Source of the DNA: a virus
Length of the DNA stretch: 64,000 nt
Reading direction: 5' to 3' (one strand)
Virus record (IMG/VR): IMGVR_UViG_3300050501_000377
Positions 28,774-43,214 of the stretch are shown here, piece after piece. A program made the translations under genes and the position numbers. Under the pieces are notes generated by a model. The model saw only the letters and a list, made by a program, of their open reading frames with translations, searched no databases and had not been told where the DNA came from. Each line of letters opens with the position of its first letter. Position 1 is the stretch's first letter.

Positions 28774-29030
28774 AAGCGCTGGTGCGCGCCCGCGCCATCA
28801 CCGTGACGCCGCCCGTGGGGCAGGGCAAGCCGTTCCTCGTCGCCGAGCTGCATATCAGCTGCGACATCTGCGGCGAGCACACCGTCACCTTTGCCGGCCA
28901 CCACCTGCGGCCGATCGTCGCGCTGTTCCAGGAGTTCATCGAGGCCTGCCCCGAGCTGACCGCCGAGGGCGACGTCGAAGTCGTCGGCAGACGGGAGTAC
29001 GACTTCCCGTTCGACCCGGAGAACAACTGA
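28770..29030 (+). CDS. hypothetical protein, 86 aa
   Basis: The GTG overlaps the upstream stop (GTGA). Confidence 0.45.
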   Translation: MKALVRARAITVTPPVGQGKPFLVAELHISCDICGEHTVTFAGHHLRPIVALFQEFIEACPELTAEGDVEVVGRREYDFPFDPENN

Positions 29031-29815: not shown

Positions 29816-30038
29816 GGCGCGCGGTCGCGTGCAGCGCCTCTACCCCGAGCGCGGCTTCGGCTTCATCCGCTGCACCGAGGGCGTGGGGGAAGTCGGCAAG
29901 GACTACTTCTTTCACATGAGTGGTCTCGACGACCGGCGGATCGAGGAGCTGGAGGAAGGCGCGATGGTGGTGTTCGAGCCGCGCGTGGTCGCCAAGGGGC
30001 TGCGAGCGGAACACATTCGGAGTGAGAGCGGGTTGTGA
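29775..30038 (+). CDS. cold-shock domain protein (CspA family)
   Basis: ERGFGFIRC...KDYFFHMSGL match the RNP1/RNP2-type motifs of cold-shock proteins. Start uncertain: ATG 29775 overlaps the GT gene by 41 nt, and TTG 29808 or GTG 29829 are alternatives. Confidence 0.7.
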   Translation: MTSSETSSRSELPEARGRVQRLYPERGFGFIRCTEGVGEVGKDYFFHMSGLDDRRIEELEEGAMVVFEPRVVAKGLRAEHIRSESGL

Positions 30039-32542
30039 TGGCGGTCACCCGACAAGTGACGCCGCCCGACCCGGATCTCGCCTTTGCGGCGCCGGTCGCA
30101 CCCGTGGTGCAGCCCCGGCGACGGGCGCCGATCGAACGGGCGCCGATCGAGATGGAGCCGGCGCCCGCCCCGGTCGTGACGCCAGCAGCGCGCGTCGAGG
30201 CACCGTCAATCCTGCCGGACCTCGGCCCACCCCGCGCGGCTGATGGGACGCTGTGGGCAGCGCCGGCTCCAACCTTCACCTATCTGGCGGGGCCGGCGGG
30301 GAGCGGCAAGACCTTCGCGACCCGGGAGTGGGCGGAGAAGGAGCCGGGGCTGGTGCTGTGCGCGACGACCGGGATTGCGGCGATCAATCTCGGCGGCGAA
30401 ACGATCAACAGCGTGCTCGGCTACTTCGACACCGCCAGCCTGCAGGAGGCCTACATCACCGGCTTCCTCACCGCCAAGCTCGGGAAACTGTGGAAGTCGG
30501 GCGTGCGCCGGCTGGTGCTGGATGAAGTGAGCATGTTGGCGGGCGACCAGCTCACCTTCCTGGTGCGGGCGATCGACGAAGTGAACGGGCGCGGGTATGT
30601 CCTCGGCAAGAGCACGCCGGACGACGACGACCCGCCGCAGATGGGGCTGACGCTGGTGGGCGACTTCGCGCAGCTGAGTCCGGTGAAGGCGAGCTATGCG
30701 TTCGAGTCGCCCGAGTGGGAGCGCTTCGCGCCGAACGTCATCACCCTGGACCGCATCTACCGCCAGGACGACCAGGACTTCATCGCCGTGCTGCGGGCGG
30801 CGCGCCATGGCCGCGGGCGGGTGGTGGCGGAGTACTTCGCCAGCCGGAACGCCATCAACCACGAGACCGACGATCACTACGACGGCCCGACCATCGTCGC
30901 GAAGAACGAGTCGGTCGACCGCTTCAACTACCTGCGGATGTCACAGCTGCAGGGCAAAGAGCTGAAGTTCACCAGTCACCGCTGGGGGAAGCTCAGAAGC
31001 GAGTGGGGCCAGCTGGAGAAGCCGGAGGCGCAGTGGGGCATCCCGAAGGTGCTGCCGCTGAAGATCGGCGCGCTGGTGATGATCCTCGCCAACCGCCGGA
31101 CCGAGCTGCTGCCGCGGCGGCTGCTGTATGTCAACGGCGACCTCGGGACGATCGTCGACGCCACCGAGGCGACCTGCTGGGTCGAGCTGCAGCGCACCGG
31201 CGAGGTGGTGGAAGTCGAGCCGGTCACCCGGGATGTGAAGGTGCCGTGTGACTCGGCGCGGAGGAAAGAGCTGCGCGAGAAAGGGCCGGAGGGCGCGACA
31301 CGGATCGACGGCAAGTGGGAAGTGGTCGGGAGCATTACCTACCTGCCGCTCAGAGTTGCATATGCATCGACGGTGCATAAGTGCGTCGCGCCGGACACGC
31401 GCGTGTTAGTCGCCGGCCGCGGCGCTGTGCGCGTGTGTGATCTACGCGTCGGCGAGTGGATCGATACGGGCGGCGGCCTCGCACGCCTCAAGGCGGTGGC
31501 GCAGACCGAGTGTCGTCTGCATCGACTGACCACCGCGCGCGGCTACACACTGCTCTGCTCGCCCGACCATCGGTGGAAGACGCCGCATGGCTTCCGCCAG
31601 ACGTGCAAGCTCGTCCCCGATCACCCGATCTGCCTAACGACAACCGCGACGATCACCGGCACACAGGAGATCGACAGCGACCTCGCGTGGTGGATCGGTG
31701 CCTCGCTCGGCAACGCCGCCTGGGCTGACCAGCGCGAAGGCCAGATCCACTTCACCAGCGAGGTCGCGCACCTGCGCGAGCGCTGGATGGCGATCGCGCA
31801 GCGACTCGGTGGGCGGCCGAACACACGCCGCGACGAGCGCGGCTGTCATCTCACCAGCCTGCCACTGCGGCTCCGGCTCGCAGCGTGGGGCTGCGACTAC
31901 GTCACCGCGGTGGACAAGCGCGTCCCTGAGGCGATTTGGACGTCGGGGCCGTCGGCTTGGGCGGCGTGCCTACAGGGCCTGTTCGACACCGATGGCTCGA
32001 TGATCGATCGCCGGCTGGTCTACGCGACGCGGTCGGAAGGACTCGCCTGCGACGTGCAGCAGCTGTTGTTGTATCTCGGCATCGCCAGCACGCGCGGCAC
32101 CTACGCGGGACCGACGGGGCCGTACCAGCACGTCTGGATCAATGCGGAGCAACGCGACCGCTACGAAGCGCTGGTCGGCTTCTCCCACCCCGAGAAACAG
32201 CGCGCACTAGGCGAGTGGCATCCGAACCGCGTGATCAAGCACTTCGACGGGACGGACACTGTCAAGACGATCGAGTGCCTGAAGGTGATCGTGCCGATGT
32301 TCGACATCGAGCTGGAAACGATCCACGAGCTAGGCTTCGGGCCGTTCGTCGGCAGCAACTCGCAGGGACTGAGTCTCGATCGGGTCCAGGTCAACATCCG
32401 CGACCCGTTCTTCAAGTCGCCAGGGATGCTCTATGTCGCGTTGAGCCGAGCGAGAAGTGCCGCCGGGTTGCGATTGGTCGGCAGCCCGCAGGCGCTGGTG
32501 GAGCGGTGCGTGACGGACCCGCGGCTGCGGGCGTGGTTGTGA
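30038..32542 (+). CDS. SF1B DNA helicase (Pif1/RecD/Dda-like) interrupted by an intein
   Basis: Walker A GPAGSGKTF, Walker B LVLDEVSML, GDFAQLSPV. The motif STVHK|SQGLS is split by a 326-aa insertion, and LYVALSRAR follows. ATG 30038 overlaps the upstream TGA; GTG 30035 is an alternative. Confidence 0.85.
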   Translation: MAVTRQVTPPDPDLAFAAPVAPVVQPRRRAPIERAPIEMEPAPAPVVTPAARVEAPSILPDLGPPRAADGTLWAAPAPTFTYLAGPAGSGKTFATREWAEKEPGLVLCATTGIAAINLGGETINSVLGYFDTASLQEAYITGFLTAKLGKLWKSGVRRLVLDEVSMLAGDQLTFLVRAIDEVNGRGYVLGKSTPDDDDPPQMGLTLVGDFAQLSPVKASYAFESPEWERFAPNVITLDRIYRQDDQDFIAVLRAARHGRGRVVAEYFASRNAINHETDDHYDGPTIVAKNESVDRFNYLRMSQLQGKELKFTSHRWGKLRSEWGQLEKPEAQWGIPKVLPLKIGALVMILANRRTELLPRRLLYVNGDLGTIVDATEATCWVELQRTGEVVEVEPVTRDVKVPCDSARRKELREKGPEGATRIDGKWEVVGSITYLPLRVAYASTVHKCVAPDTRVLVAGRGAVRVCDLRVGEWIDTGGGLARLKAVAQTECRLHRLTTARGYTLLCSPDHRWKTPHGFRQTCKLVPDHPICLTTTATITGTQEIDSDLAWWIGASLGNAAWADQREGQIHFTSEVAHLRERWMAIAQRLGGRPNTRRDERGCHLTSLPLRLRLAAWGCDYVTAVDKRVPEAIWTSGPSAWAACLQGLFDTDGSMIDRRLVYATRSEGLACDVQQLLLYLGIASTRGTYAGPTGPYQHVWINAEQRDRYEALVGFSHPEKQRALGEWHPNRVIKHFDGTDTVKTIECLKVIVPMFDIELETIHELGFGPFVGSNSQGLSLDRVQVNIRDPFFKSPGMLYVALSRARSAAGLRLVGSPQALVERCVTDPRLRAWL
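31382..32359 (+). mobile_element. intein (326 aa) with LAGLIDADG homing-endonuclease domain
   Basis: Begins CVAPDTRVLV right after helicase TVHK, has block B-like LLCSPDHRW, and ends FVGSN followed by +1 Ser. LAGLIDADG-type motifs are LAWWIGASLGN (degenerate) and LQGLFDTDGS. In frame with both exteins. Confidence 0.8.
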
Positions 32543-34139: not shown

Positions 34140-34157
34140 CAGGAACAGGAGGCGGCA

Positions 34158-34876: not shown

Positions 34877-35404
34877 ATGAAGCTCCTGCTCTACCTCTAC
34901 GCGGGCGCGACCTGTTGGCTCACCGCAGCGGAGTGCGAGGCGGTCATCGCGGAAGCCAAGGCGCGCCTGCAGGCGAGCAAGGACCGCCTCGGACGCTACC
35001 AGAACTGGTCGGCTGACAAACTCGATGCGCTGGCCCATGAATGCAACAGCGTCGGCGCGGAGCTGGCGTTCGCCAATCTCGCCCGGGGCGTGTGGGCGTA
35101 TGCGCTCGACGGGCACTCGGTGGAAGGCCGGCCCGACGTCTACCTGCAGGACGGCCGCAGTGTCGATGTCAAGCAGACGCCCCAGGAGAACGGCAGGCTC
35201 CTCCGCTGGGTGGAAGCGTCAGGGCGGGCCGACCTCTATGCGCTGATGACGGGTGTGATGCCGATCTACACCTTTCGTGGATGGGTCACCGCCGACGAAC
35301 TGGTCAAGCCCTGGAACGTGAGCCATGCCTACGGGCGGGCACCCGCCTATGCGCTCGGGCGGCTGGCGTACCACCCGTGTCTGGAGCTGGAGGTGTCCGC
35401 ATGA
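34877..35404 (+). CDS. hypothetical protein, possible PD-(D/E)XK nuclease fold, 175 aa
   Basis: GAELAFA...RPDVYLQDGRSVDVKQT fits an E...PD...(D/E)xK arrangement. Tentative. Confidence 0.4.
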   Translation: MKLLLYLYAGATCWLTAAECEAVIAEAKARLQASKDRLGRYQNWSADKLDALAHECNSVGAELAFANLARGVWAYALDGHSVEGRPDVYLQDGRSVDVKQTPQENGRLLRWVEASGRADLYALMTGVMPIYTFRGWVTADELVKPWNVSHAYGRAPAYALGRLAYHPCLELEVSA

Positions 35405-36216
35405 AGATCCTCTGCACGCACCCCGGGCGATACGGCGATCTGTTGTGGGCGCTGCCGACGGTGCGCGCCCTCAGCCACAACGCCAACGTGCCGGTCGATC
35501 TCCTCCTCGGGCCGACCTATGCCGACCCGAGCTTCTGCAGTCTGCTCAGCCGGCAGATCTATATCGGCCAGGTGCTGGTCGCCCACGATTGGGAGATTCA
35601 CGAGACCGCGCCGATCACGCCGCGCGAGCCGCCCACCCTCCCGAGCGGCTACGACATCGTCCTCCACCTCGCGTATGACGGCTGGCCGAAGCTCTCCCTG
35701 CCTTATGAGACCTACCGGATCGCTGAGGACCAGCTGCCGCTGACGATGCCGCTCGCACTCGACCCGTGGCTGGCGCCGCCCTTCCAGATGCCGACCAGCC
35801 GGATCGTGGTCGGCTTCAGCGATGAGCACTTCGAGCTGAAGTACGGGCTGTACTGGCTGCTGCGGCAGCACTTCGTCCAGGAGGACTCGCCGCCAGCCAG
35901 TGACGTGCTGAATGTCAGTGGCGGCCCGCGCTGGAAGCCGTACGGCTACACCTGCGATTGGGAGTCGGCCGCGGGCTGGATCGCCACGGCGAGTGTGTTC
36001 GTCGGCTGCTGCTCGGCGCTGCATGTACTCGCGTGCGCGCTCGGCACGCCGGTGGTGATGATCGAGCCGAACACGATGCGGCACCACGATGTGTTCTACC
36101 CCTACGGCAAAGCGAGCGACCAGGTCTGGCTGGTGCTGGGTCTCGACGGGCAGCCGACGTTTGATAGCCGGCACCTCGTCGATGTGGTGCGTGAGCGCCT
36201 GGCGGTGCTGGCGTGA
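35401..36216 (+). CDS. glycosyltransferase family 9-like (heptosyltransferase-like)
   Basis: N-terminal MKILCTHPGRYGDLLWALPTVRAL and C-terminal VGCCSALHVLACALGTPVVMI resemble the two conserved GT9 regions. The ATG overlaps the upstream stop (ATGA). Confidence 0.6.
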   Translation: MKILCTHPGRYGDLLWALPTVRALSHNANVPVDLLLGPTYADPSFCSLLSRQIYIGQVLVAHDWEIHETAPITPREPPTLPSGYDIVLHLAYDGWPKLSLPYETYRIAEDQLPLTMPLALDPWLAPPFQMPTSRIVVGFSDEHFELKYGLYWLLRQHFVQEDSPPASDVLNVSGGPRWKPYGYTCDWESAAGWIATASVFVGCCSALHVLACALGTPVVMIEPNTMRHHDVFYPYGKASDQVWLVLGLDGQPTFDSRHLVDVVRERLAVLA

Positions 36217-36590
36217 GTCGGCTGGTGAACTTCGGGCTGGGGGAAGTCTGCGACCGGCTGACCATCCTGGCGCTGAAGATCCTGCATGGCGAGGTCAAGG
36301 GGATCGACGTGACGCACTTCCAGCGCGAGCGCGCCGCCTTGCTGCCGAAGCTGCTGGCGGCGAGCGCCGGCCGCTGGACCGAGCACTACAGCGACCTGGC
36401 GGCGGTGAACTCGGCGCTGTGGCAGGCCGAGGATCGGCTGCGTGGGTATAAGCAGGAGGGGACGAAGGTGAGCCACCGCGAGGAGATCATCGAGTGCGCC
36501 TTCCGCATCCAGGAGTGGAACGACCGGCGGGCGGCGCTGATTCAGTCGATCAACGCGCTGGTCGGCGACGCGGTGCAGGAGAAGGTATGA
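36213..36590 (+). CDS. hypothetical protein, 125 aa (reminiscent of DUF4254-type proteins found beside heptosyltransferases)
   Basis: VNSALWQAEDRLR motif in an all-helical protein. The GTG overlaps the upstream stop (GTGA). The family assignment is from memory only. Confidence 0.45.
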   Translation: MSRLVNFGLGEVCDRLTILALKILHGEVKGIDVTHFQRERAALLPKLLAASAGRWTEHYSDLAAVNSALWQAEDRLRGYKQEGTKVSHREEIIECAFRIQEWNDRRAALIQSINALVGDAVQEKV

Positions 36591-36703
36591 GCGAGCGGCA
36601 GGAGATCGCGCTCGGTATGCGCCCCCGCAGCCTCAGCGGCTGGTGGTTCTGGCTGCGCTACTGGTCGCCCGTCGCGGCGTGGTGGCGGAGGAGAGGGCTA
36701 TGA
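36587..36703 (+). CDS. Trp-rich micro-ORF, 38 aa
   Basis: MSERQEIALGMRPRSLSGWWFWLRYWSPVAAWWRRRGL, with ATGA overlaps at both ends bridging two longer genes. Confidence 0.3.
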   Translation: MSERQEIALGMRPRSLSGWWFWLRYWSPVAAWWRRRGL

Positions 36704-37650
36704 GAGTCCTACTGGTCACGACCTGGGGCACGGCCTGCGGCATCGCTGAGCACTCGGCGATGCTGACCGACGCGGTCGAGCAGGCCGATCCGTCGATCGA
36801 CATGCTGCCCGACGTGGCAGCCCTCGACCCGGCGCACGTCGACGTGACCGAGGTCGAGGTCGTGCATCTCAACTATCACGCCGCCCTGCACTCGCGCTGG
36901 TGGCCGGAACACATCGCGCAGCTGCGGCGGCGCGTCCCGGTCGTCGTCACCTATCACGACAGCGGCGTCCCGAACTCCGATCAGTGCAAGGCAATCGTCG
37001 ACGCGGCCGACGCCGCGGTCGTGCATGAGCCGTTCGACGATCTGCCCGCCGAGAAGACCCGCTACTGGCGGATGGGCGTCCCCGAGTGGACCCGCCCGCC
37101 GCAGTCACTCCGGGACGACAAGCCGCTGCTCGGCACGATCGGCTTCCCGAACGCCTGGAAGAACTACGACGCGCTCTGCGACATCACCAAGGCGGCTGGC
37201 TGGGACCTGCTGCTGCTGGCGCCGGGGGCGACCGTCGAACAGGTCGCGGAGTGGCAGCGGCGTCAGCCGGAGGTCATCGTCCACCCTGAGTTCGTCGAGC
37301 GTGCGAAAGCGATCAGTTTGCTCGCCGGCTGCGACGCGACGGCGTTCCTTTACACCTGCGCGTTTGCCGGACAGAGTGGCGCGCTGCTCCTGGGGATTGC
37401 GGCGCGCAAGCCGGTCTTGGCGCTGTCGTCGTGCCGGCAGTTCCGCGCCCTCTATGAAGACACGCTCGGGCATCGGGCGATTCGCTGGTATGAGAACTTC
37501 GACCAGATCACGTTCGGGCTGGAGCTGCTGGCCAGCATCCCCTCGACACAGAAACGGGATACGCACCGCATCCGGCAGCTGGCGAAGAAGGAGAGCTGGC
37601 AGCGGCTGGGAGCGAAGTACGCGCAGCTCTATCGGGAGGTAGCCCAGTGA
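36700..37650 (+). CDS. glycosyltransferase-like, GT-B fold
   Basis: MRVLLVTTWGTACGIAEHSAMLTDAV is a typical GT-B N-terminus. The C-terminal region is FLYTCAFAGQSGALLLGIAARKPVLAL. GGAGGAGAGGG RBS. Confidence 0.6.
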   Translation: MRVLLVTTWGTACGIAEHSAMLTDAVEQADPSIDMLPDVAALDPAHVDVTEVEVVHLNYHAALHSRWWPEHIAQLRRRVPVVVTYHDSGVPNSDQCKAIVDAADAAVVHEPFDDLPAEKTRYWRMGVPEWTRPPQSLRDDKPLLGTIGFPNAWKNYDALCDITKAAGWDLLLLAPGATVEQVAEWQRRQPEVIVHPEFVERAKAISLLAGCDATAFLYTCAFAGQSGALLLGIAARKPVLALSSCRQFRALYEDTLGHRAIRWYENFDQITFGLELLASIPSTQKRDTHRIRQLAKKESWQRLGAKYAQLYREVAQ

Positions 37651-38285
37651 GCCTGACTTGCCTGTCACGCACGCTCGACCCGAAGGACTACGACCACCTG
37701 GAGCACGAGCTGCAGACGGTCGACGCGCATCCGAACGCGCTGCCGCACACGCACCGCCGGTGGGAGTATGCGCTGGCGCTGCAGGCACTGGGCCGCTGGC
37801 GCGAGCGAGGCGGGCCGTGGGAGGGGCCGGTCTACGACATCGGCGGCGCCGGCAGTGCCTTCCATTACATGCTGCGCGACTGGACTGGGAAAGAAGTGAT
37901 CGTCGTCGACCCGGCGCTGGTCGATGGCTATCCGCTGGAGGAGTGGGTGAGCGAAGGGGGCGCCGCGCTCAGTAAGGCGGTGACCTGTCTCTCCGTCATC
38001 GAGCATGTCAAGGAGCTGGACCGCTTCCTCTATCACCTGAGTTGCCTGGTGGCGCCGGGTGGCCTGCTGGTCCTGACGATGGACTACTGGAACCGCTGCG
38101 GGCCGGACACGACCGGGAACAAGGAACTGCGCGAGCGGCTGTTCTGCCAGAAGACCTACGCGCAGCTGCGCCAGACGCTCGCGGCCCTGCACCTCACCGC
38201 CTTTGGCGGGGTGGATCCGACCTTTCATGGGCTGCACGTCTGGGACTACACCTTCGCCAGTCTGGTGGTGGAGAAGCGGCTGTGA
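37647..38285 (+). CDS. class I SAM-dependent methyltransferase
   Basis: Motif I VYDIGGAGS, post-I VIVVDP, and LSVIEHVKELDRFLYHLSCLVAPGGLLVLTM. The GTG overlaps the upstream stop. Confidence 0.7.
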   Translation: MSLTCLSRTLDPKDYDHLEHELQTVDAHPNALPHTHRRWEYALALQALGRWRERGGPWEGPVYDIGGAGSAFHYMLRDWTGKEVIVVDPALVDGYPLEEWVSEGGAALSKAVTCLSVIEHVKELDRFLYHLSCLVAPGGLLVLTMDYWNRCGPDTTGNKELRERLFCQKTYAQLRQTLAALHLTAFGGVDPTFHGLHVWDYTFASLVVEKRL

Positions 38286-38836
38286 GTGTGGTGACCGCGC
38301 TGTCGCGGACCTGTAATCTCCGGGACTTCCCCGGCTGCATCACGGTCGCCGACTGGCAGCAGAGCCTGGCGGAGGAGGCCTGGGCGCTGTGGGAGAGCGA
38401 GTATCACATTCGCACGCGCGCCTCGTCGCTGGTGGTGAACTACAGCGACATCGGCTTCATCGCCCCGGGGCCGGCGGCGGTCTACGAGTATTACGAGCAG
38501 CCGACCAACGGCATCCACCGCGGGCTGCCGGCGATCTGGGGACTGTGCGTGCTCGATCGGACGGAAGCGCCGGTCAAGTTCCTGTCGCGCGCCGCGCTCG
38601 TCCTGCGGCAGCACGGGCTGCTGTTCCTGACCTTTGCCTTCTGGGATGCCGAGGGAGAAGACACCGCGGCGGGGCATCAGCATCGGATGCGGATCTACGA
38701 CGAGCGCAACTGGCGCAAGCTGATCGTCGACGCCAAGCGCGCCGGCTTCCAGACCTTCGGCGGTGTCGACTGGACCTATCACGGCAACCTGCTCGACGAC
38801 CATTCACTGGCGAGCCTGGTGCTGACAAGGAGATAG
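38282..38836 (+). CDS. methyltransferase-fold paralog lacking an obvious glycine-rich SAM loop
   Basis: LCVLDRTEAPVKFLSRAALVLRQHGLLFLTFAF and the C-terminus GGVDWTYHGNLLDDHSLASLVLTRR parallel the preceding gene (GGVDPTFHGLHVWDYTFASLVVEKRL). The GTG overlaps the upstream stop. Confidence 0.5.
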   Translation: MSVVTALSRTCNLRDFPGCITVADWQQSLAEEAWALWESEYHIRTRASSLVVNYSDIGFIAPGPAAVYEYYEQPTNGIHRGLPAIWGLCVLDRTEAPVKFLSRAALVLRQHGLLFLTFAFWDAEGEDTAAGHQHRMRIYDERNWRKLIVDAKRAGFQTFGGVDWTYHGNLLDDHSLASLVLTRR

Positions 38837-40084
38837 ATGATGCAGTGCAGGAGCTGCCGCGGGAGCCTCGATTCGTTTCTCGACCTGGGAAGCATCCAGC
38901 TGTCGGGGTATCTCGAACCGGAGGAGGACCGCCGGCCGCGGGTGCCGCTGGTGCTCGCCGCGTGTGTCGAGTGCGGGCTGGTGCAGCTGCAGGACACCAC
39001 GCCGCGCGAGCTGCTGTTCGAGCGCTACTGGTATCAGTCGGGGATCAACGAGGTGATGAAGGCGGAGCTGCACGATGTCGTCGATGCCGCACGCCGACGG
39101 GTGCCGGCGACCGAGGAGTATGTCGTCTTCGACCTGGGCGCGAACGACGGCACGCTGCTGGCGCGCTACGCCGACGAGCGGCTGGCCCTGCCGAAGCCGC
39201 TGCGGGTGGCGTTCGAGCCGGCCAAGAACCTGCAGGCGCGTCTGCAGCCGCACGCCGACATGGTCATCGCCAGCTACTTCCCCGACCAGTACTCGGTGGT
39301 GCGGCAGTTCGAGCACAAGGTCAACGTGATCACCTCGATCGCGATGTTCTACGCGGTGAATGATCTGGCGACCTTCCTCACCGCCGTGCAGGCGCTGCTG
39401 CACCCGAACGGCGTCTGGATCGTCCAGATGCAGGATCTTGCCGGAATGCTCCGCGCCCGCGCCTTCGACAACGTCTGTCACGAGCACCTGGCGTATTACT
39501 CGCTGCACACCTTCAAGCACCTGGTCGAACGCTTCGGGCTGGTGGTGACGGATGTCGAGTTGCGCCAGATCAACGGGGGCAGCTACCGGATCTACGTCCA
39601 GCACCCGGGCCATCCGGTCAGCCCGCACGTCGCCCAGACCCTGGCGGAGGAGGCCTGGTGCCAGGAGTGGTCGACGCTGGAGCGCTTCGCCTGGAATGTC
39701 CGGCAGGTGCGGCAGCAGATCCGCGCGACGCTCGATGTGCGCCGCGGCCTCGGCCAGACGATCGACCTCTACGGCGCGAGCACCAAGGCGAACACGCTCT
39801 TGCAGGTCTGTGAACTGAACCGCAACTGGCTGCGGCAGGCGTGGGAGCGCAGCCCCGAGAAGATCGGGCGGCGCACCGTCGCCACCAACATCCCGATCGT
39901 CAGCGAGGAGACGGGGCGGATGGACCCGCCCGATGCGCTGCTGGTCGGCATCTGGCAGTTCCGCGACGCGGTGATTGCGCGCGAGGCCAAGTTCCTGCAC
40001 CAGGAGCGCGGCACGCTGATCTTCCCGCTGCCGAGCGTCGACATCGTCACCGCCAGGAGCACCATCCATGCAGCTCACGCTTGA
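38837..40084 (+). CDS. NDP-hexose C-methyltransferase-type enzyme (zinc ribbon + SAM MTase + C-terminal C-MT domain)
   Basis: N-terminal CRSCRG...CVECGLVQL zinc ribbon, VVFDLGANDGTLL SAM loop, CHEHLAYYSL, and a C-terminal LYGASTKANTLLQ Rossmann-like domain. I recall this architecture from TylCIII-type sugar C-methyltransferases. Confidence 0.75.
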   Translation: MMQCRSCRGSLDSFLDLGSIQLSGYLEPEEDRRPRVPLVLAACVECGLVQLQDTTPRELLFERYWYQSGINEVMKAELHDVVDAARRRVPATEEYVVFDLGANDGTLLARYADERLALPKPLRVAFEPAKNLQARLQPHADMVIASYFPDQYSVVRQFEHKVNVITSIAMFYAVNDLATFLTAVQALLHPNGVWIVQMQDLAGMLRARAFDNVCHEHLAYYSLHTFKHLVERFGLVVTDVELRQINGGSYRIYVQHPGHPVSPHVAQTLAEEAWCQEWSTLERFAWNVRQVRQQIRATLDVRRGLGQTIDLYGASTKANTLLQVCELNRNWLRQAWERSPEKIGRRTVATNIPIVSEETGRMDPPDALLVGIWQFRDAVIAREAKFLHQERGTLIFPLPSVDIVTARSTIHAAHA

Positions 40085-40175
40085 GATCGGGGGGAATTTG
40101 CTGGCGGCGCTGGTGGTCGGGGTGCTGGCGGTGCTGGTGATTCAGTGGTGGCGGTTTCGTAGCGGGAGGCGGTAG
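40068..40175 (+). CDS. small hydrophobic peptide, 35 aa
   Basis: MQLTLEIGGNLLAALVVGVLAVLVIQWWRFRSGRR with AGGAGC 8 nt upstream. It overlaps the C-MT gene end by 17 nt. Confidence 0.35.
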   Translation: MQLTLEIGGNLLAALVVGVLAVLVIQWWRFRSGRR

Positions 40176-40393
40176 TGAGAAGCAGTGATATGATGCATAT
40201 GCTACCTGCTGCGGCTGACCCGACTAAGATGCTCACGCTCGAACAGGTTGCCGAGCAGCTGCAGATCGAGCCGCGTGCGGTACGCAAGCTGTGCGCCCGC
40301 GGTGATCTGGAGTACGTGAAGATTGGGCCGAAGACGCTGCGCTTCAAACCCGAGTGGATCGACGCACTCATCAAACGAAAGCAGGGACGGTAG
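40175..40393 (+). CDS. xis: excisionase / MerR-type HTH DNA-binding protein
   Basis: LTLEQVAEQLQIEPRAVRKLCARGDLEYVKIGPKTLRFKPEWIDALI is the excisionase-family HTH-plus-wing pattern. It lies immediately upstream of the integrase. GTG start after GGGAGG; internal Met starts are possible. Confidence 0.65.
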   Translation: MRSSDMMHMLPAAADPTKMLTLEQVAEQLQIEPRAVRKLCARGDLEYVKIGPKTLRFKPEWIDALIKRKQGR

Positions 40394-41599
40394 ATGGCGA
40401 AGTGGAAGGATGGCGTCGCGATGCGGGGCAAGACCTGGTGGATCCGCGCACAGCACGAGGGCGATCGAACCTCAGGTTTCGGCTCGGTGAAGAAGTTCGC
40501 GTTCCTGCTCGAACCGCACCAGCCGATCCCGACGACGAAGACCGATACGATGATGCTGAAGCGCCGCGTCGAGGACTGGTTGGTACGGGGGAAGCCGATG
40601 CCGACACCGAAGGTAGAAGCGCCAGCGCCGGTCGTCGAGCTGCACGGCTACGACTTGATCAACCGCTGGATCGCGACCAAGACGCGCAAGCAATCAGCAG
40701 CCGACTTGTCAAAGGAGCGCGCCGCGCAGCAGGCGTTCGGCGCGCTGCCGTTGTCGAAGTGGGAGAACGCCGAGACCTTCCGCGACTACGTCACGCGGAT
40801 GACCGACGCCGGCTTCCAGATCGCCACGCCGAACCGCGTCCTCGCCGCCGTCGTCCGTCCGGCGCTGCTGTGGGGGTTGAACCAGCGTCCCGCTCTCGTC
40901 ACCTTCAATCCGTTCGGTCGCTACCAGTTCAAGATCGACATCAAGGCCGAGAACAGACGCACCGAGCGCTGCGACCCGAACAGCGAGGCGTGGCTGTTGG
41001 AGATGTGCTACGGGCCGCTCGCCACCGCGAAGCACCGGAAGGCAGGGCCGGCGCTCGCCGACTACATCATCCTTGGGATCGACTTCGGGGCGCGGGCGGG
41101 CGAGCTACTCAACCTGAAGAACCAGGACGTCGACTGGCACGCCTGCACCGTCACCCTCCGACGCACCAAGCGCGGCGAGTTCCGCGTGGTGCCGTTCAAT
41201 CCAGTCGGGCGCGTGGCGGAGATCCTCAAACGCCGCCGGTTCGCTGGCGCTGCGGCCTACGTGGTCACGCTGCGGAAGGTCTTCAAGCTCTGGGTCCAGG
41301 CGGTCTGCCTCGTCCACGGTATCCCGTGCGAGTACCTCGGGCGCGGCAAGTACTTCACCGCGGAGACTCGCGAGGCGTACAAGGCCGCGAACCTGCGCCC
41401 GCACGACTTCCGGCACGAGGCGGCGACGTGGTGGGGACTGTGCGGCGTGTCGGACGCGACCGCGAAGTTCCTGCAGGGGCACACCTCGCAGGCCGATACG
41501 CACGGGCGCTACAAGCACGAGGAGCTGCGGCTGGCGACGCAGGAGCTGCGGGAGAAGGTCTGGTCGCGTGAGAACGAGCGGGCGCAGAAGACGGCGTGA
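40394..41599 (+). CDS. int: tyrosine integrase
   Basis: The C-terminal catalytic region has HDFRHEAATWW (HxxR) and GHTSQADTHGRYKH (catalytic Tyr). 401 aa, adjacent to a tRNA. Confidence 0.85.
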   Translation: MAKWKDGVAMRGKTWWIRAQHEGDRTSGFGSVKKFAFLLEPHQPIPTTKTDTMMLKRRVEDWLVRGKPMPTPKVEAPAPVVELHGYDLINRWIATKTRKQSAADLSKERAAQQAFGALPLSKWENAETFRDYVTRMTDAGFQIATPNRVLAAVVRPALLWGLNQRPALVTFNPFGRYQFKIDIKAENRRTERCDPNSEAWLLEMCYGPLATAKHRKAGPALADYIILGIDFGARAGELLNLKNQDVDWHACTVTLRRTKRGEFRVVPFNPVGRVAEILKRRRFAGAAAYVVTLRKVFKLWVQAVCLVHGIPCEYLGRGKYFTAETREAYKAANLRPHDFRHEAATWWGLCGVSDATAKFLQGHTSQADTHGRYKHEELRLATQELREKVWSRENERAQKTA

Positions 41600-41675
41600 T
41601 GGTGGCGAGGGCCAGAATCGAACTGGCGACACCTGCATTTTCAGTGCAGTGCTCTACCGACTGAGCTACCTCGCC
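41600..41675 (-). tRNA. tRNA-Phe(GAA): tRNA-Phe (anticodon GAA), full length with encoded CCA
   Basis: The reverse complement GGCGAGGTAGCTCAGTCGGTAGAGCACTGCACTGAAAATGCAGGTGTCGCCAGTTCGATTCTGGCCCTCGCCACCA folds by hand into a cloverleaf. Acceptor GGCGAGG/CCTCGCC, D stem GCTC/GAGC, anticodon stem CTGCA/TGCAG with loop CTGAAAA, T stem GCCAG/CTGGC with TTCGATT. Confidence 0.85.
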
Positions 41676-41685
41676 AAACCGGTCT

Positions 41686-41711
41686 CCAAGTGGATCAAAA
41701 GTGGATCAAAA
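41686..41711. repeat. 26-bp arm-type repeat, copy 1 (internally tandem GTGGATCAAAA x2)
   Basis: ccaagtggatcaaaagtggatcaaaa is identical to 41877-41902. Confidence 0.85.
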
Positions 41712-41876
41712 GTAGGCCGATGACCGAAATCCTTAGCAATTTCGCACGAGAACAGGGATTTTCAGTCCCAATTTTCCGCCCGAAAAGCCCCGAGAAGCGA
41801 CCCGCTTCCACCCGCACCCTCGATTTTCCTAACAAATTACGACCTGACCGTACCCGACCGTACCCCACGTTTCTCA

Positions 41877-41902: not shown

Positions 41903-41972
41903 AACGGTACATGAAACGACCGATTTTCGTCCGTTCGGAGGATTGACACGGCCTGCTGACCCGTGGGCGGTG

Positions 41973-42758
41973 ATGCCGGTGCTGGCCCATCCGCCCTACA
42001 CCGAAGCAGCGATCGCCGACGTCCTCGCGCAGACCCTGCCCTGCCGCCTGCTGGTGGTCAACCAGGGCGTCGACACCGACTTCAGAAGGCGCCTGGAGCG
42101 CATCAGTGAGGAGCACCCGCGCGTGCTCGTGTGGAGCCACCAGCCGCCGCTGCCGAGTTTGGCGTGGACGTGGAACCGGGCGCTCGACTTCTGCTGGGCC
42201 GCGGGCGCGCACCAGGCGCTGGTGGTGAACAACGACGTGCGGCTGGCGCCCAACACACTGTCGCTGCTCCTCGACGAGCTGCAGATCGCCAACGCGCTGT
42301 TTGTCACCGCCGTCGGTGTGAGCAAGCAGCAGTTCGCGCCGGGACAGCTCGCGCTCACCGAGGGGGGCAACGGCAAGGGCGGCCCCGACTTCAGCTGCTT
42401 CCTCGTCAGCCAGGCGTGCCACCAGCGCTTCCGCTTCGACGTGAACTTCGTGCCGGCGCACTGCGAGGACCTCGACTACCACCGCCGGCTGATGCTCGCC
42501 GGGGAGGGACGACGGATCTACAGCATCAACGTGCCGTTCCTGCACTACGGCGCGACCACGTTGAAGAGTGTCGACGCGGCGACGCGCGAGCGGATCGAGC
42601 GGCAGACCGCGGCGTATGCGCGGACCTATTACGCGCGCAAGTGGGGCGGGCCGGTGAACGCGGAGCGCTACCGCGTGATGTTCGACGGCGAGCCGGTCGA
42701 GGGCGTGACGACGCCCGAGCTGCAGGAGGCGACATGGGCAAGCGACCAGACGAGTTGA
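41973..42758 (+). CDS. glycosyltransferase family 2-like (GT-A)
   Basis: VMPVLAHPPYTEAAIADVLAQTLPCRLLVVNQGVD...WTWNRALDFCWAAGAHQALVVNNDVRL is the typical GT2 N-terminal half. The upstream part of the track ORF runs through the repeat and is rejected. Start is ATG 41973 or GTG 41970. Confidence 0.65.
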   Translation: MPVLAHPPYTEAAIADVLAQTLPCRLLVVNQGVDTDFRRRLERISEEHPRVLVWSHQPPLPSLAWTWNRALDFCWAAGAHQALVVNNDVRLAPNTLSLLLDELQIANALFVTAVGVSKQQFAPGQLALTEGGNGKGGPDFSCFLVSQACHQRFRFDVNFVPAHCEDLDYHRRLMLAGEGRRIYSINVPFLHYGATTLKSVDAATRERIERQTAAYARTYYARKWGGPVNAERYRVMFDGEPVEGVTTPELQEATWASDQTS

Positions 42759-43030: not shown

Positions 43031-43214
43031 TGCCGCGGGCAAGCTGGCGCGCATGACCTGCGGCGTGTGCCAAGGCACGACGTGGCGCCGCCACGGCGCG
43101 CTCTACGACACGATCGCTCGCGTCGTCACCGAGTTTGCCGAGTGCCAGGGCTGCGGGGCGAGCTACCTGTACCAGCGCAAGCCGACCAAGGAGGAAGCGC
43201 GTGGCGCAGCTTAG
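43005..43214 (+). CDS. small zinc-finger protein, 69 aa
   Basis: CGVCQGTTW...CQGCG; GGGGAGGCGG upstream. Confidence 0.45.
   Translation: MKGTGDACDAAGKLARMTCGVCQGTTWRRHGALYDTIARVVTEFAECQGCGASYLYQRKPTKEEARGAA

What the first reader, a model, noticed from the sequence alone, without database searches (positions are those of the whole stretch)
34877..40175. Eight-gene translationally coupled chain: nuclease-like, GT9-like, DUF4254-like, micro-ORF, GT-B, MTase, MTase paralog, C-methyltransferase
Seen: every junction is an overlap or abutment. ATGA occurs at 35401-35404, 36587-36590 and 36700-36703. GTGA occurs at 36213-36216, 37647-37650 and 38282-38285. TAG is directly followed by ATG at 38834-38839, and a 35-aa hydrophobic ORF overlaps the last gene. 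Inference: such tight coupling implies fixed stoichiometry, consistent with a multi-enzyme complex rather than a collection of unrelated morons. A heptosyltransferase-like enzyme next to a helical NxxLWxxED protein mirrors an arrangement I recall from bacterial LPS-core loci. Finding it inside a phage replication-region operon is unusual.
Basis: partly seen in the sequence, partly recalled or inferred. Interest (0 to 1): 0.7.

Follow-up and report, generated by a model that had tools for sequence, protein, structure and literature searches.

The report
Phage-encoded sugar-building gene island
An uncultivated ~72 kb soil phage carries a conserved set of about five sugar-transferring and three methyl-transferring enzymes between its helicase and DNA polymerase genes, apparently to build a methylated glycan on an unknown target; one enzyme pair in it (a heptosyltransferase-like protein and a small helical protein of unknown function) also occurs fused into one protein in bacteria.

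Summary
The tight packing is close to this genome's norm, though. 23 of 39 other same-strand junctions also overlap or abut, and the same chain runs on through the excisionase and integrase. In related phages the same genes are separated by inserted genes. The inference "coupling means fixed-stoichiometry complex" is therefore not supported for the chain as a whole.

Most family calls hold:
- g2 is a GT-B enzyme whose closest structures are GT9 heptosyltransferases (WaaC, TibC).
- g3 is a four-helix protein of the DUF4254/DUF6165 group.
- g6 is a SAM methyltransferase, and g7 is a paralog that has lost the SAM motif.
- g8 is a full-length TylC3/TcaB9-type NDP-sugar 3-C-methyltransferase.
- "Nuclease-like" g1 has no support, and g5 is only weakly GT-B-like.
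- Micro-ORF g4 is a relic of the ancestral g5 start.

The real unit is larger. It has five glycosyltransferases plus the methyltransferases and is syntenic in about 12 uncultivated ~70 kb phage contigs. GT9 and DUF6165 are adjacent or fused in Alphaproteobacteria, so g2 and g3 probably work together. The acceptor is undetermined: protein (virion) is favoured, and host envelope or DNA remain possible.

The parts
27410..28567 (+). GT1up: GT4/Glycos_transf_1 glycosyltransferase. Conserved upstream member of the island.
   Evidence: Pfam PF00534/PF13692. PHROG 2170 glycosyltransferase, E 6.5e-27. Present in 9 of the related loci that reach this far.
29030..29815 (+). o29030: GT-A-fold glycosyltransferase-like protein with an invariant H-D-D motif.
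   Evidence: Pfam Glyco_tranf_2_5 in 11 of 12 family members, best E 1.3e-7. Syntenic in 11 loci.
30035..32542 (+). PIF1/AAA_30-type helicase with a LAGLIDADG intein. Context gene, not part of the sugar enzymes.
   Evidence: Precomputed Pfam hits.
34877..35404 (+). g1: 175-aa protein of unknown function. Lineage-specific and probably not part of the island.
   Evidence: No Pfam, NCBIfam or PDB hit; weak hit to PHROG 18407 (unknown function). Its only homolog is in L007 (36% identity), where the putative PD/D-x-K residues are not conserved.
35401..36216 (+). g2: compact (271 aa) GT-B glycosyltransferase, GT9-like (heptosyltransferase-like).
   Evidence: AF2 pLDDT 95.6. Foldseek hits WaaC 3e-8, TibC 1e-7, WaaF and a Veillonella GT9. 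NCBIfam TibC/Aah E 1.6e-4. Invariant G12-D13 and S205..H208..G215-P217. No Pfam PF01075 hit. Present in 13 of 13 loci.
36213..36590 (+). g3: four-helix-bundle protein of the DUF4254/DUF6165 group. Probable partner of g2.
   Evidence: Pfam DUF4254 at 32.5 bits (cut-off 27), covering aa 62-122 only. AF2 pLDDT 89, four helices. No PDB fold match. hhalign 97% to cyanophage S-SRM01 gp348 (a DUF6165 protein) and 95% to the C-terminal domain of the Mesorhizobium TPR-GT9-DUF6165 fusion. Present in 12 of 13 loci.
36587..36703 (+). g4: 38-codon micro-ORF. Relic or relay ORF created by an insertion of about 93 nt behind the ancestral g5 start codon.
   Evidence: In the closest relative, L024, g5 starts at the same ATGA with MSESSERLRVLLVTT; the window keeps the ATG and MSE, then diverges out of frame. 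Absent in L024, L013, L014 and L011. GC at codon position 2 is 0.67, atypical for genes here. A 64-aa ORF occupies this slot in another relative.
36700..37650 (+). g5: conserved 316-aa protein, probably a divergent GT-B glycosyltransferase (weak evidence).
   Evidence: Glyco_transf_4 in 5 of 10 and Glyco_trans_1_4 in 2 of 10 family members, all below threshold. No PDB profile hit. No profile similarity to GT1up or g2. Present in 11 of 11 loci.
37647..38285 (+). g6: class I SAM-dependent methyltransferase of the small-molecule/sugar type.
   Evidence: Methyltransf_23 E 1.9e-5 (24.9 bits, cut-off 27). Motif I YD(V/I)GGAGS, the acidic D-P after beta-2 and LSV(L/I)EHV are conserved across 8 orthologs.
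38282..38836 (+). g7: paralog of g6 that has lost the SAM-binding glycine motif. Likely a non-catalytic partner or a remnant.
   Evidence: 26-31% identity to g6, E about 1e-11. Motif I is replaced by VVNYSDIGF / CINWGGCAF and the acidic residue is lost. Found only in the window, L005, L013, L015, L024 and L007.
38837..40084 (+). g8: NDP-4-keto-hexose 3-C-methyltransferase of the TylC3/TcaB9/KijD1 type.
   Evidence: Pfam Methyltransf_13 + Methyltransf_23 + Methyltransf_14, all above threshold. Full-length match to 4rv9 (1.5e-43) and TcaB9 (1.7e-41). CxxC..CxxC, the LGANDG SAM loop and the H-E-H catalytic motif are conserved. Present in 9 of 9 loci that reach it.
40068..40175 (+). g9: 35-aa hydrophobic ORF. 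It travels with the xis-int module rather than with the sugar genes.
   Evidence: Codon-position GC is gene-like at 0.67/0.42/0.86. A 34-aa ORF sits at the same position in a relative that also has xis and int. Absent from relatives that lack this integrase.
40175..41599 (+). Excisionase-like HTH_17 protein (40175 or 40229 to 40393) and tyrosine integrase (40394-41599). This module is inserted between g8 and p261.
   Evidence: Pfam and PHROG hits. The g8-p261 gap is only 0.16-1 kb in L005, L011, L014, L015, L017 and L020. A different integrase sits there in L013, and one sits between hel and g2 in L005.
41600..41675 (-). tRNA-Phe(GAA) abutting the integrase stop codon. Probable attP region.
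   Evidence: ARAGORN. No tRNA in 9 related loci. No exact match of its 3' half in GTDB genomes.
41973..42758 (+). p261: GT-A (GT2-like) glycosyltransferase. Conserved downstream member of the island.
   Evidence: Glycos_transf_2 in 3 of 10 members (best 7.8e-6) and Glyco_tranf_2_3 (3.2e-5). PHROG 29879 'galactosyl transferase' 1e-9. Present in 10 loci.
43135..46209 (+). DNA polymerase A with an N-terminal UDG-like domain. Context gene that bounds the island.
   Evidence: Pfam PF03167 + PF00476. At most 26% identity to any phage in INPHARED.

Best explanation
The eight-gene chain is the central part of a larger, ancient phage glycan-synthesis island. The island lies in the replication arm of an uncultivated, temperate ~72 kb phage.

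**Conserved core**
- Five glycosyltransferases: a GT4 (27410), a GT-A (29030), GT9-like g2, probable GT-B g5, and a GT2-like protein (41973).
- The four-helix DUF4254/DUF6165-type protein g3.
- A SAM O-methyltransferase-type enzyme, g6, sometimes with its degenerate paralog g7.
- The NDP-sugar 3-C-methyltransferase g8.

**Proposed working (inferred)**
- g8 methylates C3 of a host-made NDP-4-keto-6-deoxyhexose to give a branched sugar donor.
- g2, acting with g3 as a separate subunit that is a fused domain in some bacteria, transfers a heptose-type sugar from an ADP-linked donor.
- The other transferases extend the glycan.
- g6, or the FkbM methyltransferases that relatives carry, O-methylates it.

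All of these are soluble, acidic, cytoplasmic proteins.

**Acceptor**
The acceptor is not shown. I rate it as follows:

| Acceptor | Probability |
|---|---|
| Protein, i.e. the phage's own virion proteins | about 0.4 |
| Host envelope glycoconjugate | about 0.25 |
| Phage DNA | about 0.2 |
| Other | about 0.15 |

**The overlaps**
The start/stop overlaps reflect a compact polycistronic phage operon, not a stoichiometric complex of all eight products. Only g2 and g3, and possibly g6 and g7, are likely physical partners.
For: **Shown**
- Enzyme identities.
- The order GT4, GT-A, (CSD), (helicase), g2, g3, g5, g6, (g7), g8, GT2-like, PolA is conserved in about 12 contigs of 52-73 kb at 35-60% amino-acid identity.
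- Family sizes: at least 349 g2 homologs and 438 g3 homologs, all on phage-sized contigs.
- No g2 relative in 185,579 GTDB species genomes, so this is not recent host cargo.
- Relatives add further sugar-tailoring genes inside the island: FkbM methyltransferases and an NAD epimerase/dehydratase next to g8.

**The g2-g3 partnership**
- g3 is homologous to DUF6165 proteins (hhalign 97% and 95%).
- Those proteins lie directly after GT9-domain genes in Sulfitobacter (beside rfaD, rfaE2 and a HAD-family hydrolase that I read as GmhB-like) and in Paroceanicella.
- They are fused as TPR-GT9-DUF6165 in Azospirillum lipoferum and Mesorhizobium.
- g2 and g3 overlap or abut in 7 of 12 phage lineages.

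**Leaning towards a protein acceptor**
- g2's only sequence-level hits are to the protein O-heptosyltransferases TibC/Aah.
- The bacterial GT9-DUF6165 proteins carry TPR domains, as does the flagellin glycosyltransferase FlmG (PMC7591256).
- The g3 fold recurs inside a multidomain Mimivirus protein.
- Phage-encoded virion glycosylation is established in mycobacteriophages (PMC12363180, citing Freeman et al. 2023).
- There are no membrane proteins, flippase or polymerase in the island, and all the enzymes have pI 5.3-6.4.
Against: - No acceptor has been identified, and no glycosylation-site motif has been shown in the structural proteins.
- The island lies in the early/replication arm rather than among the late genes, which fits DNA modification better.
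- Integrases are repeatedly embedded in or next to the island (window, L013, L005), as in serotype-converting phages.
- g2 has no Pfam GT9 hit and is about 50-80 aa shorter than WaaC/WaaF. Its donor is unknown.
- g5's assignment as a glycosyltransferase is weak.
- The island encodes no 4,6-dehydratase or 4-ketoreductase in the window lineage, so g8 depends on host enzymes (inference).
- g3 is missing next to g2 in L017, and in L007 it sits next to g6 without g2.
Confidence: 0.55

Rival explanations
1. Lysogenic conversion or superinfection exclusion. The island remodels a host cell-envelope glycan (LPS core or O-polysaccharide, or another lipid-linked glycan) by adding heptose and methylated or branched sugars at the cytoplasmic face. 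This changes the phage receptor or the serotype.
For: - The enzyme families are those of LPS and O-antigen loci: GT9, GT4, GT2, FkbM/RfbT-type methyltransferases and a TylC3-type C-methyltransferase.
- The phage is temperate, and xis-int-tRNA lies inside the island, as in gtr/oac phages. Other integrases lie in or beside the island in L013 and L005.
- One bacterial DUF6165 locus sits next to Wzm/Wzt-like ABC transporter genes, and another next to ADP-heptose synthesis genes.
- The tailoring enzymes vary between relatives in a serotype-like way.
Against: - The core is present in every relative at deep divergence and is interleaved with the helicase and polymerase. It is not a variable moron.
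- The integrase module is an insertion into the island, not the reverse.
- There is no membrane component: no GtrA/B, Wzx/Wzy, Wzm/Wzt or acyltransferase.
- There are no close bacterial homologs of g2.
- No promoter- or terminator-like signals set the island apart.
Confidence: 0.25
2. DNA hypermodification. The transferases glycosylate a hydroxymethylated pyrimidine in the phage genome, and the methyltransferases tailor the sugars, to evade restriction and CRISPR.
For: - The position between helicase and PolA matches where DNA-modifying clusters usually lie.
- Phage GT-A and GT-B enzymes related to LPS and teichoic-acid enzymes have been shown to put hexose, HexNAc and heptose glycans on 5hmC. 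They often lie next to polymerases, helicases, methyltransferases and epimerases (bioRxiv 10.1101/2023.12.21.572611).
- The island is a conserved core of the lineage.
Against: - No thymidylate-synthase-like hydroxymethylase, TET/JBP dioxygenase or C5 DNA methyltransferase is detectable by Pfam in any gene of the 71.7 kb genome or in relatives.
- All the transferases are acidic, pI 5.3-6.2.
- Five transferases plus an NDP-sugar C-methyltransferase exceed any known DNA glycan.
- g6 has small-molecule-type rather than DNA-methyltransferase motifs.
Confidence: 0.2
3. The eight overlapping genes encode subunits of one multi-enzyme complex, and translational coupling fixes its stoichiometry.
For: - Ten consecutive junctions have a gap of 3 nt or less, against 59% elsewhere in the genome.
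- The closest relatives (L024 and the P0127 contig) are equally compact.
- GT9 and DUF6165 are fused in bacteria, so at least one pair is likely physical.
Against: - The same coupling links g9, xis and int.
- g1 and g4 are not conserved, and g4 is a relic.
- g7 is absent from about half of the lineages.
- Inserts of 0.3-3 kb separate g2/g3, g3/g5, g5/g6 and g6/g8 in relatives.
- Even newly inserted genes are overlap-coupled. That shows compaction, not co-assembly.
Confidence: 0.08

Closest known systems
GT9 heptosyltransferases: LPS-core WaaC/WaaF and the protein O-heptosyltransferases TibC/Aah
   Same: g2 has the GT-B fold, and its top structural neighbours are exclusively GT9. It has an N-terminal G-D in the loop after beta-1. 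It has the C-terminal S-x-L-H-x-L-A-x-A-x-G-x-P-V-V nucleotide-sugar motif, which aligns to TibC.
   Different: There is no Pfam PF01075 hit. g2 is only 271 aa and acidic. It has no detectable bacterial orthologs. It is encoded by a phage next to replication genes. Donor and acceptor are unknown.
Alphaproteobacterial TPR-GT9-DUF6165 proteins and GT9 + DUF6165 gene pairs (uncharacterised); TPR-GT-B flagellin glycosyltransferase FlmG as the nearest studied architecture
   Same: The order is the same: a GT9-type domain followed by a DUF6165/DUF4254-type four-helix domain. The two are either fused or overlap by 4 nt. These proteins sit in loci with other glycosyltransferases, FkbM or class I methyltransferases and ADP-heptose genes.
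   Different: The phage pair lacks the TPR substrate-binding domain. g3 scores as DUF4254 rather than DUF6165 in Pfam. None of these proteins has been studied: no papers mention DUF6165 and only two mention DUF4254 in passing.
TylC3 / TcaB9 / KijD1 NDP-hexose 3-C-methyltransferases
   Same: g8 has the same three-domain architecture, a full-length alignment (E 1e-43), the Zn Cys4 site, the SAM loop and the catalytic Glu-His.
   Different: Identity is only about 30%. g8 lies in a phage without the accompanying dehydratase, reductase or aminotransferase genes of antibiotic sugar pathways. A relative, L020, has an SDR next to it.
Phage and virus virion-glycosylation systems (mycobacteriophages Che8/Corndog/Myrna; chlorovirus PBCV-1 A064R; Mimivirus fibril glycans)
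   Same: These are virus-encoded sets of several soluble glycosyltransferases, with methyltransferases in the eukaryotic viruses, that act in the cytoplasm (PMC12363180; the rest is my own knowledge).
   Different: There is no sequence relationship to those enzymes (no INPHARED hits). Glycosylated virion proteins have not been demonstrated here. The GT9/DUF4254 pair and the C-methyltransferase are not part of those systems.
Phage DNA sugar-hypermodification gene clusters (Pyle et al., bioRxiv 2023)
   Same: GT-A and GT-B enzymes derived from envelope-glycan enzymes sit in the replication region, with methyltransferases and epimerases nearby. Heptose is among the sugars used.
   Different: The defining precursor enzymes (a ThyS homolog, or C5-MT plus 5mYOX) are absent.
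Serotype-converting modules of temperate phages (P22/SfV gtrABC, Sf6 oac)
   Same: A glycan-modifying cluster lies next to xis-int-attP (tRNA) in the window lineage.
   Different: There are no membrane-bound Gtr or acyltransferase proteins. The island is core and ancient, and the integrase is the inserted element.

Membership tests
Glycosyltransferase family 9 (g2) | GT-B two-Rossmann-domain fold with GT9 enzymes as nearest structures | tested here: met
   AF2 pLDDT 95.6, pTM 0.93. The Foldseek top 30 are all WaaC, TibC, WaaF or the Veillonella GT9, with E from 3e-8 to 4e-6.
Glycosyltransferase family 9 (g2) | Match to Pfam PF01075 (Glyco_transf_9) at the gathering score | tested here: not met
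   No Pfam hit at E of 0.1 or below. There are only sub-threshold NCBIfam hits to TibC/Aah (20.8 bits) and RfaQ.
Glycosyltransferase family 9 (g2) | Conserved catalytic Asp after beta-1 and the C-terminal nucleotide-sugar-binding motif | tested here: met
   G12-D13 and S205, L207, H208, G215 and P217 are invariant or near-invariant in 40 homologs. The motif aligns to TibC residues 265-318. Equivalence to WaaC Asp13 rests on my own knowledge.
Glycosyltransferase family 9 (g2) | Uses ADP-heptose as donor | not testable with these tools
   Needs an enzyme assay.
DUF4254 (PF14063) / DUF6165 (PF19662) (g3) | Pfam match at the gathering score | tested here: met
   DUF4254 scores 32.5 bits against a cut-off of 27, but covers only aa 62-122, matching profile positions 7-61 of 144. 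DUF6165 scores 15.6 bits, below its cut-off of 27, but spans aa 10-115.
DUF4254 (PF14063) / DUF6165 (PF19662) (g3) | Full-length homology to bona fide members | tested here: met
   hhalign 97.2% (E 2.8e-11) to S-SRM01 gp348, a DUF6165 protein at 39.6 bits. hhalign 95.3% (E 2e-8) to the DUF6165 domain of the Mesorhizobium fusion protein.
NDP-hexose 3-C-methyltransferase, TylC3/TcaB9 type (g8) | Zn-ribbon + class I MTase + C-terminal Methyltransf_14 domain architecture | tested here: met
   PF08421 47.5 bits, PF13489 45.3 bits and PF08484 110.5 bits, all above their cut-offs.
NDP-hexose 3-C-methyltransferase, TylC3/TcaB9 type (g8) | Four Zn-binding Cys, the SAM glycine loop, and the catalytic Glu-His (TcaB9 E224/H225) | tested here: met
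   The alignment to 4rv9 and TcaB9 shows C4, C7, C43 and C46, LGANDG, and FDNVCHEHLAYY matching FDTIYHEHLSY. Residue roles come from my own knowledge of the TcaB9 work.
NDP-hexose 3-C-methyltransferase, TylC3/TcaB9 type (g8) | Acts on an NDP-4-keto sugar | not testable with these tools
   Needs an enzyme assay. An SDR epimerase/dehydratase lies next to the ortholog in L020.
Class I SAM methyltransferase (g6, g7) | Motif I (GxGxG-type) followed by an acidic residue at the end of beta-2 | tested here: met
   g6 has YDIGGAGS and VVDP, conserved in 8 orthologs. The Pfam score of 24.9 bits is just under the cut-off of 27.
Class I SAM methyltransferase (g6, g7) | The same motifs in the paralog g7 | tested here: not met
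   In g7 orthologs motif I reads VVNYSDIGF, CINWGGCAF, VVNWSGCPF or CFNWGAAAF, with no acidic residue after beta-2.
GT-B / GT4 glycosyltransferase (g5) | Significant match to GT4/GT1 profiles or structures | tested here: inconclusive
   Sub-threshold Glyco_transf_4 (best E 0.008, 5 of 10 members) and Glyco_trans_1_4 (2 of 10). No PDB profile hit. hhalign to GT1up and to g2 gives below 1% probability. A GT-B-like C-terminal motif is visible by eye only.
Phage DNA sugar-hypermodification cluster | Enzyme that makes the 5-hydroxymethyl-pyrimidine acceptor (ThyS homolog, or C5-MT + TET/JBP) | tested here: not met
   None appears among the Pfam hits for all called genes of the 71.7 kb contig, nor in a direct scan of unknowns at E of 1 or below. 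Very divergent versions cannot be excluded.
Serotype-converting (gtr/oac-type) module | Membrane-embedded transferase/flippase components; accessory, variable presence | tested here: not met
   No such proteins are present. The core is conserved in all relatives. Adjacency to int-attP holds only in some lineages.
Translationally coupled multi-subunit complex | Gene junctions and gene set conserved among relatives | tested here: not met
   Insertions are found at four of the junctions, and g1, g4 and g7 are dispensable.
Virion glycosylation system | Glycan attached to capsid or tail proteins | not testable with these tools
   Needs virions. The only observation is two S/T-rich small proteins next to the putative capsid gene.

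The most novel reading that the evidence does not exclude
g2 and g3 are the two halves of a previously unrecognised kind of GT9-type glycosyltransferase, in which a DUF4254/DUF6165 four-helix bundle is an obligate partner domain. In some Alphaproteobacteria the two are fused; in this phage, and in a cyanophage where the partner gene is a GT2-methyltransferase fusion, they are split. This phage lineage uses the pair to start a heptose-containing, C- and O-methylated glycan on its own virion proteins. That would make it a bacteriophage with a multi-sugar virion glycan, comparable to those of giant viruses, outside the Actinobacteria phages.
Probability: 0.25. Interest if true: 0.75.

Novelty: new variant of a known kind. 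Interest (0 to 1): 0.55.

Why it matters
Phage-encoded glycosylation is known in three forms: on virions (mycobacteriophages), on DNA (T4-like phages and metagenomic clusters) and on host O-antigen (gtr/oac).

This island is larger than those phage systems. It has five transferases, a branched-sugar C-methyltransferase and O-methyltransferase cassettes that vary between relatives. It is a core feature of a widespread, completely uncultivated lineage of ~70 kb soil phages.

It also gives the first functional context for two domains of unknown function, DUF4254 and DUF6165. These have at least 3,000 sequence clusters and essentially no literature. They are partners of GT9-type glycosyltransferases, fused to them in some bacteria. 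That is a directly testable hypothesis for a large protein family.

If the acceptor is the virion or the DNA, the variable methyltransferase cassettes would point to an arms race over a phage-made glycan.

Tried and rejected
**Cultured relatives**
- blastn and megablast of the cluster and the upstream 15 kb against 50,697 phage records found nothing.
- tblastn of g2 against the same records found nothing.
- PolA has at most 26% identity to any of them. So there is no cultured relative and no host.

**Host identification**
- An exact search for the 3' half of the tRNA-Phe in GTDB genomes gave no match.
- A g2 profile scan of GTDB genomes gave no relatives.

**Function of g3**
- Foldseek against PDB gave only generic helical bundles with E above 0.6.
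- BFVD gave one borderline hit, a domain of a 723-aa Mimivirus protein.
- The exhaustive HMM search listed only stand-alone proteins of about 130 aa among its top 150, so it gave no fusion information.
- The fusions were found instead through annotated plasmids.

**PDB profile searches**
- Profile searches of PDB gave nothing for g5, p261 or o29030 and only a sub-threshold TibC hit (E about 0.5) for g2.

**g1 as a PD-(D/E)xK nuclease**
- Rejected. No tool gave a hit, and the candidate residues are not conserved in the L007 homolog.

**All-alpha NTP pyrophosphatase (MazG-like) idea for g3**
- Considered because of the conserved acidic pairs, and dropped because Foldseek found no MazG-type match.

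**Search for ThyS, TET or C5-MT**
- Negative.

**Other**
- The promoter and terminator scan of 27-46.5 kb found nothing above shuffled expectation.
- Freeman et al. 2023 could not be read.

Full report
**1. The observation**

- ATGA at 35401, 36587 and 36700.
- GTGA at 36213, 37647 and 38282.
- TAG followed directly by ATG at 38834-38839.
- A 35-codon hydrophobic ORF (40068-40175) that overlaps the last 17 nt of the C-methyltransferase gene.

The same ORFs, with the same starts, were called on four independent metagenome contigs that carry an identical copy of the region (L001-L004).

I used those gene calls for the whole genome. The ten junctions from g1 to the integrase all have a gap of 3 nt or less. 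Among the other 39 same-strand junctions, 23 (59%) do too, and 18 are true overlaps (Fisher p about 0.02). The packing is therefore somewhat tighter than average but close to this genome's norm.

The run continues through the excisionase-like gene and the integrase (TAGTGA at 40173, TAGATG at 40391). These have nothing to do with sugar chemistry.

**2. What the window is**

The window is almost a whole phage genome.
- It is circularly permuted relative to a 71.7 kb ENA contig (offsets).
- Two minus-strand arms (1-11.3 kb and 47.6-64 kb) encode large proteins without Pfam hits. One is a 990-aa protein with a lytic transglycosylase domain typical of internal virion proteins.
- A plus-strand arm (11.9-47.6 kb) holds a cro/cI-like HTH gene, an AAA_25 ATPase, a PIF1-type helicase with a LAGLIDADG intein, and a PolA with an N-terminal UDG domain.
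- There is no relative among 50,697 deposited phage genomes. g2 has no relative in 185,579 GTDB species genomes. The host is unknown.
- A tRNA-Phe gene abuts the integrase stop codon.

**3. The individual genes**

*g2 (35401-36216)* has no Pfam hit.
- Its AlphaFold model, built from 40 homologs, is very confident (pLDDT 95.6).
- The top 30 Foldseek hits in PDB are all GT9 enzymes: WaaC (3e-8), TibC (1e-7), WaaF and a Veillonella GT9.
- The only sequence-level hits are sub-threshold matches to the protein O-heptosyltransferases TibC/Aah.
- G12-D13 and the C-terminal S-x-L-H..G-x-P-V-V motif are invariant in the family.

*g3 (36213-36590)* passes the DUF4254 threshold.
- The match covers only its C-terminal half.
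- The model is a four-helix bundle (pLDDT 89) with no meaningful PDB neighbour.

*g5 (36700-37650)* gives only sub-threshold GT4/GT1 hits. It shows no profile similarity to the other transferases. "GT-B" remains a plausible guess.

*g6 (37647-38285)* has intact class I SAM motifs.

*g7 (38282-38836)* is its paralog (26-31% identity). It has lost the glycine-rich SAM loop and the acidic residue in all four orthologs, so it is probably non-catalytic.

*g8 (38837-40084)* is a full-length homolog of the NDP-hexose 3-C-methyltransferases TylC3-type 4rv9 and TcaB9 (E 1e-43 and 1e-41). The Zn Cys4 site, the SAM loop and the catalytic H-E-H motif are conserved.

*g1 (34877-35404)* has no hit in Pfam, NCBIfam or PDB. 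The residues that look like PD..D-x-K are not conserved in its one homolog. The "nuclease-like" label is unsupported.

**4. The micro-ORFs**

*g4.* In the closest relative (L024; g3 is 86% identical), g5 starts at the ATGA that ends g3 and reads MSESSERLRVLLVTT. In the window the same ATG and MSE are followed by about 93 extra nucleotides, out of frame. This ends in a new ATGA that restarts g5 at MRVLLVTT. g4 is therefore a relic of the ancestral g5 start.
- At most it serves as a translational relay.
- It is absent from L024, L013, L014 and L011.
- Its codon-position-2 GC (0.67) is unlike real genes here, which are about 0.40-0.45.

*g9.* It has gene-like composition, and a positional counterpart exists in a relative that also has xis and int. 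It belongs with the recombination module.

**5. The real unit is larger and conserved**

Twelve related contigs of 52-73 kb, from IMG/VR, NCBI and Logan assemblies, carry the same order at 35-60% protein identity:

GT4 (27410-28567), GT-A (29030-29815), cold-shock protein, helicase, g2, g3, g5, g6, (g7), g8, GT2-like (41973-42758), PolA.

- The two GT-A assignments rest on Pfam hits in most family members and on a PHROG hit.
- g2 is present in 13 of 13 loci, g3 in 12 of 13 and g5 in 11 of 11.
- g1, p528, p233, g4, g9, xis, int and the tRNA are not conserved.
- The integrase module is an insertion between g8 and the GT2-like gene. A different integrase sits in that gap in L013, and another lies between the helicase and g2 in L005.

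The junctions are not conserved.
- FkbM-family methyltransferases lie between g2 and g3 (L018, L019) and between g5 and g6 (L018).
- An NAD-dependent epimerase/dehydratase lies just before g8 in L020.
- Other ORFs of 0.3-3 kb lie elsewhere.
- Even these newcomers are overlap-coupled in the compact relatives.

So the overlaps record genome compaction in a long operon, not co-assembly of the products. No promoter- or terminator-like sites interrupt the stretch.

**6. The GT9 and helical-protein pair**

- The g3 family is homologous over its full length to gp348 of Synechococcus phage S-SRM01 (hhalign 97%). gp348 is a bona fide DUF6165 protein. It lies, with a 4-nt overlap, after a GT2-methyltransferase fusion and before an NDP-sugar dehydratase/epimerase.
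- DUF6165 proteins on alphaproteobacterial plasmids always follow a transferase or methyltransferase gene in glycan loci:
  - In Sulfitobacter the upstream protein has GT1 and GT9 domains. The next genes are rfaD, a HAD-family hydrolase that I read as GmhB-like, and rfaE2, which points to ADP-heptose synthesis.
  - In Paroceanicella the upstream protein is a TPR-GT9 protein, overlapping by 4 nt.
  - In Azospirillum lipoferum and Mesorhizobium, TPR, GT9 and DUF6165 are fused in one polypeptide.
- The g3 profile matches the C-terminal domain of the Mesorhizobium fusion at 95%.

Such fusions are classical evidence that the separate proteins act together. g2 and g3 overlap or abut in 7 of 12 phage lineages. 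There are no papers on DUF6165 and only two that mention DUF4254 in passing. The g3 profile finds 3,042 sequence clusters at E of 0.001 or below.

**7. What the island does**

*Shown:* it encodes five (four well-supported) glycosyltransferases, an NDP-sugar C3-methyltransferase, and one or more O-methyltransferase-type enzymes. All are soluble and acidic.

*Inferred:* it assembles a methylated, branched-sugar glycan, possibly containing heptose, in the cytoplasm from host nucleotide-sugar precursors.

The acceptor is not determined. The three candidates compare as follows.

*Protein, i.e. virion proteins (about 0.4)*
- The island is an ancient core of the lineage rather than variable cargo.
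- It has no membrane components.
- g2's sequence affinities are to protein heptosyltransferases.
- The bacterial GT9-DUF6165 proteins carry TPR domains like the flagellin glycosyltransferase FlmG (PMC7591256).
- Phage-encoded virion glycosylation has precedent (PMC12363180).

*Host envelope remodelling (about 0.25)*
- The enzyme families and the recurrent association with integrases favour it.
- The conserved, interleaved position and the lack of membrane components argue against it.

*DNA glycosylation (about 0.2)*
- The position among replication genes favours it, as does the demonstration that LPS-like phage transferases put hexose, HexNAc and heptose on 5hmC (bioRxiv 10.1101/2023.12.21.572611).
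- No enzyme able to make a hydroxymethyl-pyrimidine is detectable anywhere in the genome.

**8. Verdict**

- The family guesses are mostly right.
- The "fixed-stoichiometry complex" inference is not supported, except plausibly for g2-g3 and perhaps g6-g7.
- The eight-gene boundary is wrong on both sides.

The feature is a new variant of a known kind, a phage glycosylation island. It has an unusually rich enzyme set, sits in a lineage with no cultured member, and gives a new, testable lead on the function of DUF4254 and DUF6165.

Noticed in passing
window 41676-41972 (repeats at 41689-41711 and 41880-41902): The only sizeable non-coding stretch in the arm lies next to the tRNA-Phe. It carries two identical 23-nt elements, each a tandem 11-mer (AGTGGATCAAA x2), 191 bp apart. 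None is expected by chance. They flank a lower-GC spacer. They could be integrase arm-type sites of attP or operator sites for the downstream operon.
   Followed up: partly
window 41600-41675 (-): A full-length tRNA-Phe(GAA) with CCA is encoded immediately after the integrase stop codon. Nine related phage loci have no tRNA here. The 3' half has no exact match in 185,579 GTDB species genomes, so it gives no host clue.
   Followed up: partly
window 30035-32542 (+): The PIF1/AAA_30-type helicase carries a LAGLIDADG homing-endonuclease (intein-type) insertion. Relatives align only to the flanking parts (about 45-58% coverage), so the insertion is variable.
   Followed up: no
window 32553-34859 (+): There is a lineage-specific insertion between the helicase and g1. 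It consists of a 528-aa protein with a weak right-handed beta-helix hit (pectate-lyase/tailspike-like) and a 233-aa protein with a PEPEPEPQ linker and a coiled-coil tail. A depolymerase-like gene in the early arm next to a glycan island is odd.
   Followed up: partly
window 43135-46209 (+): The DNA polymerase A is fused to an N-terminal family-4-type UDG domain. The UDG part has its best phage hits in Bacillus phage SP-15, a phage known (from my own knowledge) for hypermodified DNA. Identity is only 29%.
   Followed up: no
window 490-813 and 826-1389 (-), next to 1415-2467: Two small proteins rich in Ser and Thr (19% and 22%) sit beside the 350-aa putative major capsid gene. They are candidate decoration proteins or glycosylation targets.
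   Followed up: no
window 22001-23100: GC drops to 0.59 (the genome is about 0.67) around a divergent pair: a 77-aa minus-strand gene and a 71-aa HTH_3 (cro/cI-like) plus-strand gene. This is probably the lysis-lysogeny switch.
   Followed up: no
relative contig carrying P0127 (ERZ27275469, gene at 2703-2915 of that record): A close relative encodes a 70-aa protein with an Acb2/Tad1-hairpin Pfam hit (anti-CBASS/anti-Thoeris sponge) just upstream of the GT4 gene. The region ahead of the island may therefore hold anti-defence genes.
   Followed up: no
L005 5355-5651 and 5789-6172: In this relative the first 22 codons of g3 are duplicated at the start of a 98-aa ORF, about 430 bp upstream of the intact g3. 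This is the footprint of an insertion at the g2-g3 junction, the same junction that holds FkbM genes in L018 and L019.
   Followed up: no
L030 (Azospirillum lipoferum 4B plasmid AZO_p6, NC_016588 274741-289115): The TPR-GT9-DUF6165 fusion gene lies between a giant calcium-binding (RTX-like) protein gene and a 1001-aa TPR-methyltransferase gene. The giant secreted protein could be the glycosylation substrate, as with TibC-TibA.
   Followed up: no
whole window: The structural arms have no Pfam hits for terminase, portal or capsid. The only PHROG hit among the five structural proteins scanned is the transglycosylase domain of the 990-aa protein at 49105-52077. The phage lineage is very distant from described phages, yet it is common in soil metagenomes (hundreds of homologs on contigs of 65-73 kb).
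   Followed up: partly
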